Origin: Eledone cirrhosa
Lineage: Eukaryota
Length of the DNA stretch: 64,000 bases
Assembly (NCBI GenBank): GCA_964016885.1
Contig: OZ024746.1
Span: 72,292,001 to 72,356,000, forward strand
Reading direction: 5' to 3'
Within the stretch, counting starts at the first letter, position 1. Every line of letters begins with the position of its first letter. This document shows, in pieces, positions 877-64,000 of this stretch. Both the position numbers and the translations under genes were made by a program. The notes beneath the pieces were generated by a model, which made no database searches, was not told where the DNA came from, and was given only the letters and a program-made list of their open reading frames with translations.

Positions 877-1405
877 AAATGCCATTATTTATATAGATGA
901 ACTGTATACACAAAGATTTAGAAAGAGACAGATAAGAAGGAAAGCCGATTTAACTTACCGAAGACAGCCAGATAGTTATTAGGACAGAGTAGAATGGAAT
1001 AAGGGAGGGCCCTCAGGTACCGTGTTAGAACTTCTGTTATGTCGTATGGTGTGTACCGTTTCTGTTTGATGTAATGAGATCCCGTGAAGCTACCTGCATA
1101 AAAAAAAATTATATTGATTAACAACTAGGCCAATTTTAGTAGTTTATATACACACAAACAAACACACCATATATATATAGTCTTCACATTTATTATTAAT
1201 ATATATATATATATATATATATATATATATATATATATATATATATATATATATATATATATATATAGATATATATATATATATATATATATATATATAT
1301 ATATATATACAAATAACAGGAGGCTGGTGGACTGGTGTAAATCCTTGAAAAGTTTATTATACTATGATCATTTCAATGAATGAAATGATCATAGTATAAT
1401 AAACT

Positions 1406-2400
1406 GGTCTTACTTTATGACTGCGAAGATGACTTTCGAATCCAGCTTTGCTTAGGCAGAGTCTCGCACAGACGCTGCATGTCAGCACCATAGGAGGACC
1501 CTCGCCGTCTGGAAGTGCAACAGCAATGCCCTTCCTCACATCCCGCTTTACTTTCTCGTATGCGATTCGAGATGCCTCAAAGGCAACTTTTCCCTCATAT
1601 ACAGTCTTTCTCCATTTATTACGATCAGCAGCAATATTTTCCCATGTATCAGCAGAGATGTTAGCGTCTTTCAGAGAGGCTTTCAAGGAATCCTTATACC
1701 TCTTTTTTGGTTTATGTGGCGGTCGTTTTCCTTTAACCAACTCTCCATAAAAGAGTTGTTTTGGTATTCTAGAGGTGACCACTCCAACGGAGTCGTTGCT
1801 TAAGCACAAGAGCTTCTATACTGTCACACATAGAGCTTTCCAAAATCTCGACATCACTGATGTGGTCCCTCCAGTGAACGCCATGGATCCGTCTGAGACA
1901 CATCTGATGGAAACGCTCCAATTGCTTAAGGTGGTGTCGATATGTGACCCAAGTATCGCAGGCATAATGACCACACATGCCCTGTACACCTTTATCTTTG
2001 TCCTCCTGCATATGTCTCGCCGACCCCAGAGTCGCCTTTCTAGCTTTCCGAAAGCATCACTTACTTTCCTAATCCTAAGTGAGATTTCACTGTCAAGGTT
2101 GCTGTATCGATTGACAGTGCTTCCCAGGTAGACAAACTGATCAACCACTCCAAGTCGTTTACCATACACATAGATGTTTGGTTCAGTGTACTGCTTACCA
2201 GGGGCAGGTTGGTACATGACGACGGTTTTCTTGAGACTGACAGTCAATCCTAGGGCAGTGCAAGCATCAGAAAATGCATTCAAAATGTGCTGCATATCAC
2301 TCTCTGTGTGCGCTACAAGATCGCAATCATCTGCATACAAGAGGTCTCTTATGATTGATGTAAATACTTTTGTCTTCGCAGCAAAGCGCCTGATGTTAAA
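1406..2400 (-). mobile_element. RTE-clade LINE 3' fragment, frameshifted
   Basis: YADDCDLVAH..GLTVSLKKT; YLGSTV; RLRWSGH; RIPKQLFYGEL; C-terminal CxxC..HxxxH. Confidence 0.9.
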
Positions 2401-2632
2401 TATTATATATATATATATACATATATATATATATATATATATATATATATATATATATATATATATATATATATATATATATATATATATATATATATAT
2501 ATGCAAAAGTTTTATTTAAAATTGTTGGGTTACAACAAGTAAATATTTTATAACTGATATAAAGCACTCGACAAGTTTTGGAGTAGATATACGATATTAA
2601 ACAAATGGAAACTATATTTATAAAACCATATT

Positions 2633-2698
2633 TATTTCATTATACATATTCCGGGGATACCATATTAAAAATATGGCATGCCTTCTTCAGATAAAATA
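2633..2698 (-). ncRNA. Inverted copy of the 3333 hammerhead, core mutated (GAAA->GGAA)
   Basis: Reverse complement of 3333-3398 with one substitution at 2651. Confidence 0.65.
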
Positions 2699-59643: not shown

Positions 59644-60482
59644 TAATCCCCCAGCAAGATCCGTGAACAGTTTATTTAAACTATAAACTATTCTGTTTAG
59701 AGTTTAATTAAAGCATTGTTTGTTGTTAATTAACGTCTGAGTTCTTATTGATCTTTCGTAACACCACCACCATTAACAGCAACAACAACTACAACTACTC
59801 ATAATACTACTAATACTAATGCTGCTGCAACTAGTACTGGAATTATTACTACTTCTACTATTACTAATAAAATAGTATCACCAGCACCAGCACCACCACC
59901 ACCACTACTAAAAACAACAATTACGACTAAAACCCGCAAGACCGCCTAACTATCCCCAGTAACTCTACAACTATCACAACCACTAACTCCGCCATCACTA
60001 CCATCACCACAAGCAATAACATTGGCATTACAACAATCACCACCACCACCACCACCACCACCACCACCACCACCACCACCACCAAAACCACCAACCTTCT
60101 TGTATGGGCAGAGGGAGAAAAATAAAAAGTGAGAGAGAGGAAGAGTCGTCACTTGTTACTGCCACCAGGCCTGTTGCGGTCCTTGTTCTTTATCAAAGAC
60201 AGAACCAGTCCATGTACTGTACCGATTGTGTTGTTGTTTCTGTTTACCTTTTACACACACACACACACACACACACACACACACACACACACACACACAC
60301 ACACACACACACACACACACACACACACACAAGAAGAAGAAGAAGAAGAAGAAGAAGAAGAAGAAGAAGAAGAAGAAGAAGAAGAAGAAGAAGAAGAAGA
60401 AGAAGAAGAAGAAGAAGAAGAAGAAAAAGAAAAAGAAAAAGAAAAAGAAAAAGAAATGTATATATATATATATATATATATA

Positions 60483-61646
60483 CAGGGTGCGGATGGTAGG
60501 CACAAGGCCATGACAGAAAAAAATGGTATTCTTATAAAAGTAGCATAAACATAAAGCTAAATTATCAATTTAATAATTTCATTCAATAAAACCACCATAA
60601 GCATCAATAACTGCCTCTACACGGGGTCGAAATCGTTTGCAAGCTCGGATTAAGTGGTCCTTGTTCATATCGGACATGATTCGAATTATGGCGGCTTTCA
60701 AATAATTTTTGGTGCTATGGGAGTGTTCATTGACATTTTTCTCAACGGTGCTCCTAGTGGATTGAGATCTGGAGAATTAGGAGTCCAAATGTTGGGGGTG
60801 ATGTGATCATGCAAATTGTCGGTCACCCATTCTTGTGTCATTTGAGCCTTGTGTGATGGTGCAGAATCTTGTTGAAAGACATAAGGCCTTCCATTGCATA
60901 CACTATTGATCCAAGGCGTAACAACTTTATCCAGAACCTCAATATATGCAGCATCATTCACCCTAAGGCCTTGTGGAAAAAAGTGAGGAGGCATCTCATG
61001 TCCTTCATTGCTAACAACACGCAAAACCATGACAAATTTTGTGTGCTTATTCTTGGAACCTCAGAAGTGTCTGCACATAGCTACCTGTTATTTCTTCTGT
61101 TAGTTTTCTGGTCCTGGTCAAAGTTTTTCTCATCTGAGAAAAACCAAATCACACCATCTTCTGATGGATTTTTAAGTTTGTTTAAAAGTCTTTTGGATTT
61201 GATTAAACGCTTTTCTTTTGATTTTTCTGACATGAATTGACCTCTCCTCATCACGTAAGATTTGTATCTGATGTCTTCATGCACAACATTTCTGATTGTT
61301 TTTTCTCACACACCAAAATGTTTTGCAATTGACCTCATTGATTTTCCTGGATTGTCATCAATGTTTTTCTTAACTTCCTGAATAAATTCAGATGTCCTGA
61401 TAGAATCAGAGCGTTTGGAATGTTTTTTAAGTTTTGATACAGGTAATACGCTTCTTGTGGACAAAAGATCTTGCAAATTTAAAAAAACGAGAAATTTCTA
61501 AATGACCATGTTTAGCCTTCAAAGCCACAATCACAGCATGCCTTTTCATTTCATTAGTAATTTTCTGAAATGGAAGTTCAATAAAAATTAGTCAAATAAC
61601 ATAATGACTAAAAATACATGTGCCCTCAAATACCGTCCGCACCCTG
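60483..61646 (-). mobile_element. Tc1/mariner DNA transposon (DD37D/maT-like), defective
   Basis: TIRs CAGGGTGCGGATGGTA / TACCGTCCGCACCCTG flanked by TA; FFSDEKNF and FQQDSAPSH...SPDLNPL with 37 residues after the second D; frameshifted. Confidence 0.9.
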
Positions 61647-64000
61647 TATATATATATATATATATATATATATATATATATATATATATATATATATATA
61701 TATATATATATATATATATATATATATATATATTATTATTACTATATATATATTACTACTATATATTATTACTATATATTATTACTATATATTATTACTA
61801 TATATTATCAGTAGAGGGTCGGACGCCATGCTTTCCAGCATAGTTACATCCCTTTACGATCTGAGTTCAAATCCCGCCGAGGTTGACTTTGCCTTTCATC
61901 CTTACGGGGTCGATAAAATAAAGTACCAGTAATGCACTGGGTAATTGCTGGCCTTGTGCCTAAAGTAGAAACAATTATATATATATTATATATATATATA
62001 TATATACTATATATATATTATTATTACTATATATATATATATATAGTAATAATAATAAATGTGAAGACTAAAATCCAAAGAGGGTCCGATAAGGATAAAT
62101 ATATATCAAATATATAAGAACCCTAGAGCAAATATTCATTAAAATAACAGATTAAAGTGTAAGTAAAGAATCGCTGCTTTCATCCTTAACGGGTTCTTCT
62201 GAATATATATATATTCAGAATATATACATACGTGTGTGTGTGTGTGTGTGTGTGTGTGTGTGTGTGTGTGTGTGTAAATGTGTGTATGTATCTATGGATG
62301 GATAGATAGATGGATAGATAGATGGATAGATGGATAGATGGATATAATTGTGTGCATGTTCAGATGTTTAAGGCAAATCTGCATTTGTTGAGTAATTTTT
62401 GTTTTGATTTTTTCATCTTTGAACGTATTTCCCCCTAAACCCAACAACAAGATTTCTTTACCAACGAATTACCCAACAAAATGGCGACGACTTCAAAGCG
62501 ATTTCATCTTTACATGTTTACTGATCTAAGGTAGTGAGGAAATTATATACATGTTTAGTAAGCGGTGGTGTGGTGGAAGTTACGGTGATAGTTGTAATTG
62601 AGGGGATTTGGTGGTAGTATTGGTGAAAGGTAGGTACAGATATACATAAATCATATCCATTTTCTCTTTTTATCTCCTTTTGATCTTTGGTCCGCTCGAT
62701 CAGAGTTGATCCGAGGCTATACACCAACACATTAGAACAACGTCAACAAACAGCAATAACAACCACAAGAACAGCAGCAGCGACAACAACAATAACAACA
62801 ACAACACTAGCCAGTCGAATTTGTTTCCTTTGGATTTTTCTTAAAGAATTTAGTGCAGTAGTTCCTTTGTACGATATTCCCAAAATTCTGTAATCCATAC
62901 CTATAGTTTCTAGACAACCTTCACCACACTAATTTTAATAAGATGTTAAGTGAAACAAAAATCGTTTTAGGAAGAATTTAATTATGTATATAAAAAAAAC
63001 ACCGAATAAGATTTTATGAAATTTTATAACAACTATCTTATCCCACGGAACCCCATTTATATGTGGAACCCTGAGATTCTTTTGAAACTCCCATTAGCGT
63101 CTTAGTTACCAATTTAGTGTCTTGTCTTTTGTTATAGTATTGAATTTGGATATTGAGCCGGCCACGGGACACAAACATTTGACGTCTGGACAGTTTACCC
63201 TGTAGCTCTATCAACTCAAAAATCCACTTAATTATTGATCGCCTTGTTAATTACAGTAATTTGCATTTACCAATAATTCATTATAGATTGTTAATTATTT
63301 CACTTAAATGTTCCAGCTTTCATCTCGATAACATTTATGAATTAATAATGCATAAGCGATTATATATATCAATATATATATATATATGTGTGTGTGCATA
63401 TATATATATATATATATATATATATATATATATATGTACAAGTAGGACCCCGACGGCTGAGCTCAAGCCGTTTCGACGGCTAATTCTGGACTAAAAAAAA
63501 TTTTTTTTAGTCCAGAATTAGCCGTCGAAACGGCTTGAGCTCAGCCGTCGCGGTCCTATTTGTTCCTATTACCCACTCTACTACCCTAAGTATTGAGTAC
63601 TTTGGTGCGTTATGGTCCATCTGGTTCCTTACCACATTTCCTTCGTTATATATATATATATATATATATATATATACCGTATATATGTGTGTGTGTTCAT
63701 TTTTATTACTATCACACACCCACACACATACATACATGCATAAATACATACATACATACATACATACATACATACATACATACATACATACATGCATACA
63801 TACATACATACATACATACATACATACATACATACATACATACATACATACATACATACATACATACATACATACATACATACTGTCAGAACTGTCAGCA
63901 TACAACAAATACATTGCCCACAATACTTATGCTGTGCCAATTCTAACGCCAATTCTAACGCCAACATTTGGCCTACTGAACTGGTCATTGCAAGAACTAA

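What the first reader, a model, noticed from the sequence alone, without database searches (positions are those of the whole stretch)
1351..63559. About 17 fold-back inverted repeats, many turning at or near a hammerhead
Seen (approximate arms): 1351-1375/1381-1405; 2587-2794/3237-3444; 5238-5291/5382-5434; 5690-6072/6146-6529; 24367-24550/24628-24811; 27035-27125/27587-27683; 28228-28262/28397-28436; 28877-29036/29047-29214; 30981-31020/31021-31060; 36166-36224/36229-36288; 40752-40764/40774-40786; 41010-41099 vs family A; 42792-42833/43004-43046; 45469-45515/45524-45569; 45926-46052/46106-46232; 49513-49574/49578-49638; 63443-63498/63502-63559. Apices often lie just 5' of the HHR core or inside helix II. 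The inverted piece at 28228-28262 stops at the GTC cleavage triplet. Known: PLE insertions often carry an inverted pseudo-LTR. Inference: cDNA snap-back or template switching at the structured ribozyme. Arm mismatches argue against pure read artefacts.
Basis: partly seen in the sequence, partly recalled or inferred. Interest (0 to 1): 0.75.

Follow-up and report, generated by a model that had tools for sequence, protein, structure and literature searches.

The report
Penelope hairpins turn at RNA start
These DNA hairpins are real head-to-head end-pieces of several Penelope-like jumping-gene families, a known layout, and their turning points do not follow the hammerhead motif but pile up at a predicted transcription start, so each is likely two separate DNA copies, primed on opposite strands, that often ran off the front of the element's RNA.

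Summary
The inverted repeats are real (22 versus 0-1 in shuffles), genome-wide (10-27 per 100 kb), and strand-change joints of two families occur in raw reads of other individuals. They are head-to-head pLTR ends of Penelope-like (PLE) families in (TA)n, each with thousands of copies, six lying beside RT or GIY-YIG frames (one of Hydra type). The hammerhead link fails: in four families where it can be separated, 1 of 90 truncated 5' ends lies within 5 nt of hammerhead position 3, and 1 of 180 ends lies at the scissile bond. Ends pile up at an initiator-like A lying -122, -89, -44, -6 or +45 nt from position 3, with a TATA-like box at -30/-31 in three families. Simple snap-back also fails: 108 of 112 pairs carry the tail on one arm only, and in 24 each arm holds sequence that the other lacks. 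Best reading: twin priming at two RT start sites, run-off at the RNA 5' end, end-joining. The start site is inferred; no RNA reads were available. The layout is published, and this scan reached the same reading on other genomes.

The parts
1311..1405 (.). Family M: minus-strand copy 1375-1311 ending in (TA)n, truncated just before the hammerhead GAAA, plus a 25-bp inverted piece (1381-1405) that reaches no family 3' end; likely a local templated fill-in
2503..3439 (.). Family B head-to-head pair: left arm (2503-2794, minus) carries the tail; right arm ends at the short end and reaches 442 nt further 5' (non-nested). Initiator-like A at 3252, hammerhead position 3 at 3341; inner end about 104 nt upstream of the core
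5181..5434 (.). Family C pair: both arms start downstream of the family's hammerhead (+149 and +66 from the initiator-like A); left arm tailed, right arm longer 5' (non-nested)
5690..6697 (.). Family F pair (tandem-type unit): 383-bp arms, right arm tailed; U3-A8 hammerhead-like core at 6371, 225-298 nt from the inner ends
24367..24920 (.). Family G pair: same short-end/tail layout; no hammerhead found; right boundary approximate
27035..27683 (.). Family I pair interrupted by (TA)n and another insert; no hammerhead found
28228..28565 (+). Family H copy with an intact type I hammerhead motif (core 28364, cleavage after 28399), preceded by a 35-bp inverted piece that starts at the GTC triplet
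28838..29214 (.). Family J pair: left arm tailed; inner ends +19 and +16 from the initiator-like A, 25-28 nt upstream of core 29068
30964..31142 (.). Old family E pair; turn about 3 nt into the core
36166..36357 (.). Family E pair: arms end +5 and +1 from the initiator-like A, which is the first base of stem I; core at 36230; 67-nt tail on the right arm
40752..40786 (.). 13-bp stem; not shown to be a fold-back
41008..41591 (.). Family H pair interrupted by another repeat (41100-41210); left arm tailed and short, right arm longer 5' (non-nested by my reading); inner end downstream of the hammerhead
42792..43310 (.). Family K (about 425-bp tandem unit) pair: right arm starts 3 nt into the core, at a 3-nt microhomology; hammerhead core at 42836 on the minus strand
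45381..45807 (.). Pair of a family sharing the C terminus, hairpin at 45469-45569, right arm split by a later repeat insert (45571-45763); no canonical core found
45921..46338 (.). Family L pair: left arm short-ended and 49 nt longer 5'; right arm with 99-nt tail (non-nested); cores at 46139 (+) and 46020 (-), 35-84 nt from the inner ends
49450..49638 (.). Family E pair, tail on the left; ends +4 and +1, junction different from 36224
63438..63646 (.). Family D pair: both arms end at -3 from the initiator-like A, which lies inside helix II of a U3-A8 hammerhead (parent copy at 34305-34420, minus); A/T-run junction insert; 78-nt tail on the right

Best explanation
The hairpins are head-to-head pairs of 5'-truncated pseudo-LTR ends of Penelope-like retroelements inserted in (TA)n; each is likely made by twin priming, one cut target strand starting a cDNA at the element's short RT start and the other at its long (tail) start, both cDNAs often running off a predicted transcription start and being joined end to end, with the hammerhead merely lying near that start in some families. 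Shown: family identity, two fixed outer ends, one tail per pair, variable junctions, pile-up positions, both arms sharing the same variants. Inferred: that the pile-up is the RNA 5' end, that both arms are separate cDNAs, and that repair end-joining links them.
For: (1) Family B runs into intact frames of about 745 aa with Hydra-type motifs; E, D and L lie beside related frames and J and C beside GIY-YIG domains. (2) 108 of 112 pairs and 14 of 14 coding pairs with both ends visible have the tail on exactly one arm. PAc initiates RT at two sites bounding the tail and cuts and extends both target strands in vitro (PMC11167929, main-text results read). (3) Non-nested 24, nested 25, equal 59, with the same arm divergence (0.024 vs 0.020, p=0.82). 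In 60 tail-picked E and D loci, 6 robust head-to-head joints have arms that do not overlap at all. (4) Within 5 nt of the initiator-like A: 45 of 90 truncated ends in B, D, J, L, against 1 of 90 at hammerhead position 3. In held-out copies: D 46/78 (p 3e-30), E 16/28 (1e-10), B 5/44 (0.048), J 2/5, L 2/6. A TATA-like box starts at -30/-31 in E, J, D; the B initiator motif is kept across 11 divergent reference copies and matches the TCACT noted in rotifer pLTRs (PMC3846280, main text read). (5) Raw reads of three other individuals show depth steps at that base (about 8-fold in E, about 3-fold in L), and 4 of 5 listed strand-change joints in L lie at +0 to +5. (6) Junctions are diverse (4,521 tight E hairpins, many different joints among the 50 listed); 52 of 112 carry extra bases; 9 of 23 inserts of 8 nt or more match local sequence (1.4 expected). 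(7) The two common E variants sit on both arms in 16 of 16 pairs.
Against: No RNA 5'-end data: no raw RNA run of this species was offered. The initiator position was chosen after seeing the peaks; motifs with <=1 mismatch occur at 7-9% of positions. Family C shows no pile-up in held-out copies (0 of 25) and B only a weak one; B's densest window lay at -143, probably where alignments fail in low-complexity sequence. The L peak coincides with an 8-bp palindrome and with TA microhomology, which could attract junctions by themselves. In D the site sits in the apical stem of helix II, so a structural pause is not excluded there. A cap-derived extra G was inconclusive (G before 8 of 16 D ends and 9 of 13 E ends, but 1 of 8 in J and 1 of 9 in L, and often assignable to the partner arm). 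In E reads more joints lay at 1414-1417 than at the start site, probably alignment limits of diverged subfamilies. Two one-arm variants were each seen in a second pair.
Confidence: 0.7

Rival explanations
1. cDNA snap-back or template switch triggered by the folded or self-cleaved hammerhead.
For: Turns in E and D lie at or inside the hammerhead; one window piece starts at the GTC triplet. Arms share variants.
Against: No constant offset to the core across families; 1 of 90 and 1 of 180; K with a canonical core has no peak; non-nested and non-overlapping pairs. Hammerhead mutants did not change PAc insertion in vitro (PMC11167929).
Confidence: 0.05
2. A single cDNA runs off the RNA 5' end, self-primes a hairpin (or an antisense RNA self-primes, as proposed in PMC3846280), the endonuclease trims either arm at an internal TA to give the short end, and later apex deletions create asymmetry.
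For: Explains the start-site pile-up, shared variants and one tail per pair; short ends sit at internal TA; Craig 2021 ascribe the tail to endonuclease resolution (PMC8557442, passages).
Against: Needs kilobase deletions in young copies (4 of 14); non-nested pairs are no older than nested ones and carry similar junction inserts; solo copies end at either 3' end; the two RT starts were seen directly for PAc.
Confidence: 0.17
3. The hairpins are non-autonomous MITE-like masters that are copied as ready-made hairpins.
For: One E junction recurs at the 40 best loci of the hairpin query.
Against: Those loci were selected by the query; tail-picked loci show many different junctions, and shared variants are two-armed.
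Confidence: 0.05
4. Long-read chimeras or assembly artefacts.
For: Perfect palindromes are a known long-read artefact (recalled). The individual window loci were not checked against independent reads.
Against: Arms stop at family-specific ends, differ by up to several percent, recur by the thousand, and strand-change joints occur in Illumina reads of three other individuals.
Confidence: 0.02

Closest known systems
Insertion unit of endonuclease-positive Penelope-like elements: pLTR, adjacent inverted 5'-truncated copy, optional tail (PMC3846280 main text; PMC8557442 passages)
   Same: Head-to-head inverted copy, palindrome at the junction, tail on one end, TATA plus initiator-like TCACT in the pLTR, (TA)n targets
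   Different: Tails here are about 40-99 nt against 30-40 published; the published explanation is self-priming, possibly on an antisense template; a pile-up of junctions at the initiator was not reported in the passages seen
Hydra clade of C-terminal EN+ PLEs (PMC8557442 section 11, read)
   Same: Family B frame has RWR, DKT, CxCX5C, CxxC and CxH motifs, a C-terminal GIY-YIG-like motif, a hammerhead and (TA)n insertion
   Different: Unit is 3.9 kb (published generally <3 kb); no phylogeny run; J and C frames look like another clade (CX2-5CxxC linker or CxxC motifs read by eye)
PAc (Poseidon of Anolis) in vitro system (PMC11167929)
   Same: Two RT start sites bounding the tail; both strands cut and extended; AT-rich targets; cleavage not needed
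   Different: Inverted products and second-strand joining were not resolved in the text read
L1 twin priming (PMC2837659, passages)
   Same: Second target strand primes internally on the same RNA; two inverted pieces; non-overlapping cases here look the same
   Different: Here the internal start is fixed, and the first cDNA usually continues through it, giving a palindrome rather than an inversion-deletion
Minimal hammerheads of PLE pLTRs and non-LTR retrozymes (PMC4209133 passages; bioRxiv 10.64898/2026.07.22.740005 part 1 of 5)
   Same: Minimal type I motifs, U3-A8 variant, pairs 100-700 bp apart on opposite strands already noted; K and F are tandem units
   Different: Cleavage not tested here; the motif does not set the turning point

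Membership tests
EN+ Penelope-like elements | Single ORF with RT and GIY-YIG endonuclease linked to the repeat | tested here: met
   B unit includes a 745-aa frame with YRDD and IIY..YVG motifs, though Pfam and PDB gave no hit for it; Pfam GIY-YIG for frames beside J and C; tblastn links for E, D, L. Not shown for F, G, H, I, K, M.
EN+ Penelope-like elements | pLTRs from partial tandems | tested here: met
   L207 and 7 of 20 coding loci show partial tandems
EN+ Penelope-like elements | Adjacent inverted 5'-truncated copy and a tail at one end | tested here: met
   108 of 112 and 14 of 14
EN+ Penelope-like elements | Hammerhead motif in the pLTR | tested here: met
   Descriptor hits or hand-read motifs for B, C, D, E, F, H, J, K, L, M; none found for G, I
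EN+ Penelope-like elements | Target-site duplication | not testable with these tools
   Insertions sit in (TA)n, where duplications cannot be read
Hydra clade (family B) | RWK-like motif, DKT, CxCX5C linker, CxxC and CxH, (TA)n target | tested here: met
   against PMC8557442 section 11
Hydra clade (family B) | Placement in the RT phylogeny | not tested
   No reference proteins were fetched
Ribozyme-triggered fold-back | Constant offset of turns to the hammerhead or its cleavage site | tested here: not met
   Offsets -122 to +45; 1 of 90; 1 of 180
Single-cDNA snap-back | One arm wholly contained in the other | tested here: not met
   24 of 108 non-nested, 6 robust non-overlapping of 47 joints, 4 of 14 coding pairs
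Run-off at a Pol II start | Capped RNA 5' end at the pile-up base | not testable with these tools
   No raw RNA reads offered; extra-G test inconclusive
Run-off at a Pol II start | Initiator at the peak and TATA at about -30 | tested here: inconclusive
   Initiator 0-1 mismatch in 5 of 5 peaked families, TATA-like in 3 of 5; held-out support strong for D and E, weak for B, J, L, absent for C
Active hammerhead ribozymes | Self-cleavage | not testable with these tools
   Only motif and fold prediction; 5 of 6 folds were no better than shuffles

The most novel reading that the evidence does not exclude
Double-ended twin priming from two fixed RT starts, with run-off at the capped pLTR start, is the normal Penelope integration route: it explains the inverted pLTR, the one-sided tail and the swarm of 130-300-bp stubs, makes every genome a fossil map of PLE transcription starts, and has seeded this genome with tens of thousands of near-perfect hairpins that could feed dsRNA editing and silencing.
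Probability: 0.5. Interest if true: 0.65.

Novelty: new member of a known kind. Interest (0 to 1): 0.42.

Why it matters
How Penelope-like elements make their inverted structures is called undefined in PMC8557442 and left to experiment in PMC3846280. Here five co-resident families place the pile-up from 122 nt before to 45 nt after the hammerhead core, which separates ribozyme from start site within one genome, and the non-nested pairs argue against self-priming. That gives exact bases for 5'-RACE and a direct prediction for the existing in vitro system. For annotation, such hairpins should be filed as PLE ends rather than MITEs, miRNA precursors or artefacts.

Tried and rejected
Rfam at E<=1 gave only microsatellite-driven miRNA-like matches and no hammerhead family. 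A first self-BLAST without masking was swamped by (TA)n. A 68-base DNA search for the E tail found nothing, so exact patterns were used. The idea that family E spreads as one ready-made hairpin came from query-selected loci and was dropped; those 29 pairs were left out of the counts. Apparent secondary peaks at D +35 and E +21 were set aside as anchor limits, internal deletions or diverged subfamilies. Three D 'no overlap' calls (L164, L171, L175) were not counted as robust. The cap-G test was inconclusive. Pfam and PDB did not recognise the family B frame. A second batch of 20 coding loci was not obtained, so that count rests on 20 loci. Literature searches for Penelope with twin priming, self-priming and palindrome, transcription start site and tail since 2021, strong-stop and octopus with hammerhead listed no paper stating the run-off or twin-priming rule; subscription papers and supplements were not seen.
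Full report
Setting. The window is G000:C6:72292001-72356000 of a 3.0-Gb animal genome; its repeats look octopus-like to me (recalled, not tested). I checked the 17 repeats, assigned them to families, sampled the families without regard to their upstream structure, and asked where the turns fall.

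Observation. All listed arms align. The masked window has 22 local inverted repeats against 0-1 in three shuffles and 10 hammerhead descriptor hits against 0-1 in ten shuffles. Ten random 100-kb segments were fetched; seven ordinary ones hold 10-27 such repeats each, one GC-rich segment 3, and two satellite segments were dropped. The window is therefore typical of this genome.

What they are. Each repeat is an end of a (TA)n-inserted family with two fixed 3' ends, a short one and a long one about 40-99 nt further on. Exact motif counts are E 6,827, D 13,224, B 31,957, K 8,550, C 21,563, L 3,940, J 6,098. Family B continues into a 3,859-bp unit with a frame of about 745 aa, intact at many loci, with the motifs given for the Hydra clade (PMC8557442 section 11; the Hydra lead came from earlier finding e1-10326545). 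E, D and L lie beside related frames, and J and C beside GIY-YIG domains. K is a tandem unit of about 425 bp. An adjacent inverted 5'-truncated copy and a one-sided tail are the published PLE layout (PMC8557442, passages; PMC3846280, main text), and opposite-strand hammerhead pairs 100-700 bp apart and the U3-A8 core were noted in PMC4209133 (passages).

Not an artefact. Raw Illumina reads of three other individuals (same or close species, unresolved) and one contig set were laid on parents of L and E. They show (TA)n after both E ends, depth steps at the pile-up base, and strand-change joints, 4 of 5 of them at +0 to +5 in L. The single window loci were not checked.

Do turns follow the hammerhead? 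For seven families I took the first 30 pattern hits and mapped the 5' end on long parent copies. Truncated ends pile up at -6 (E), -44 (J), -89 (B), -122 (L) and +45 (D) from hammerhead position 3; C shows a weak cluster at -5 and K none. In B, D, J and L, 1 of 90 ends lies within 5 nt of position 3, and across six families 1 of 180 within 3 nt of the scissile bond.

What marks the pile-up. It is an A in an initiator-like 7-mer (0 mismatches in E and D, 1 in B, J, L), with a TATA-like box at -30/-31 in E, J and D; ends are rare upstream and tail off downstream in E and J. As the site was picked from the peaks, I retested on held-out copies: D 46 of 78, E 16 of 28, B 5 of 44, J 2 of 5, L 2 of 6, C 0 of 25. 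Two coding copies begin at +4 and about -3. PMC3846280 describes TATA plus TCACT in rotifer pLTRs; PMC2377424 (passages) reports an internal TATA-less promoter for Drosophila Penelope. I infer the RNA 5' end. Caveats: no RNA reads, an 8-bp palindrome at the L site, a helix at the D site, an inconclusive extra-G test.

Snap-back or two cDNAs? Of 141 pairs found, 29 query-selected ones were dropped. Of 112, 108 have the tail on one arm only; the tail-less arm reaches at least 8 nt further 5' in 24, the tailed arm in 25, and they are level in 59. In a non-nested pair each arm has sequence the other lacks, which a target-primed cDNA copying itself cannot give. Among 47 joints in 60 tail-picked E and D loci, 6 robustly have no overlap. 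Among 20 coding B loci, 14 of 14 pairs with both ends visible have one tail and 4 are non-nested by 2.5-3.7 kb. Non-nested pairs are no more diverged than nested ones, against late erosion. Arms of a pair are about two to eight times closer than arms of different pairs and share common variants in 16 of 16 cases, so both come from one template or locus. Junctions differ from locus to locus: 39 of 112 overlap by 1-4 nt, 9 by 5 or more, 12 are blunt, 52 have extra bases, some locally templated, as expected of repair end-joining (pathway assignment from my own knowledge). PAc cuts and extends both strands, starts RT at two sites bounding the tail and does not need hammerhead cleavage (PMC11167929), which fits. 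A hairpin intermediate trimmed by the endonuclease remains the main rival.

Window verdict. Seven of 17 inner ends are in or beside a hammerhead, four of them E or D; B, C, L and the 41008 pair are non-nested; 1351-1405 and 28228-28262 are short inversions that may be local fill-ins; 40752-40786 is unproven.

Novelty. The structures are ordinary PLE insertion units in new families. My searches listed no paper stating run-off or twin priming for PLEs, but the library lacks subscription papers and I saw no supplements. I noted the start-site idea, before the look-ups; the scan had reached the same reading on other genomes and the one-tail rule on this one. Those are unreviewed notes, not support. 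What this window adds is the spread of offsets across five families and the non-nested count. Confidence: PLE ends 0.95, twin priming about 0.75, start-site run-off about 0.7.

Noticed in passing
window 11190-16531: Satellite of 242 copies of a 22-bp unit, 95% alike.
   Followed up: no
window 19370-19750 (-): Exon-like C2 domain piece (Pfam E 0.00075), so the window probably lies in introns of a host gene; it resembles BCR/ABR by recall only.
   Followed up: partly
window 7079 (+), 6371 (+), 34305-34420 (-): Hammerhead motifs with the U3-A8 core in three families.
   Followed up: partly
window 7630 (-): Complete hammerhead motif with a long helix II outside any palindrome, family not assigned.
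   Followed up: no
   Followed up: partly
L134:1379-1457, runs X21-X23 and X1: Reads go back by 74-77 nt: a tandem unit of about 76 bp holding little more than the family E hammerhead.
   Followed up: no
L307:1444-1523, runs X21-X23: Many reads cover only this 80-nt hammerhead stretch with unrelated flanks: a related family or a mini-element starting 12 nt before the core.
   Followed up: no
L361-L380, unit positions about +3040 to +3110: Several junctions and tandem starts of family B fall at an ATT repeat in the 3' UTR.
   Followed up: no
L001-L030: One exact E junction recurs at many loci; a favoured join or a hairpin sub-lineage.
   Followed up: partly
L284, L285: Both family C arms show dense A-to-G changes around the hammerhead, as after RNA hyper-editing.
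   Followed up: no
window 1357-2511 (-), 37583-38233 (+), 60698-61060 (-): Fragments of other LINE-type RTs and a DDE transposase.
   Followed up: no
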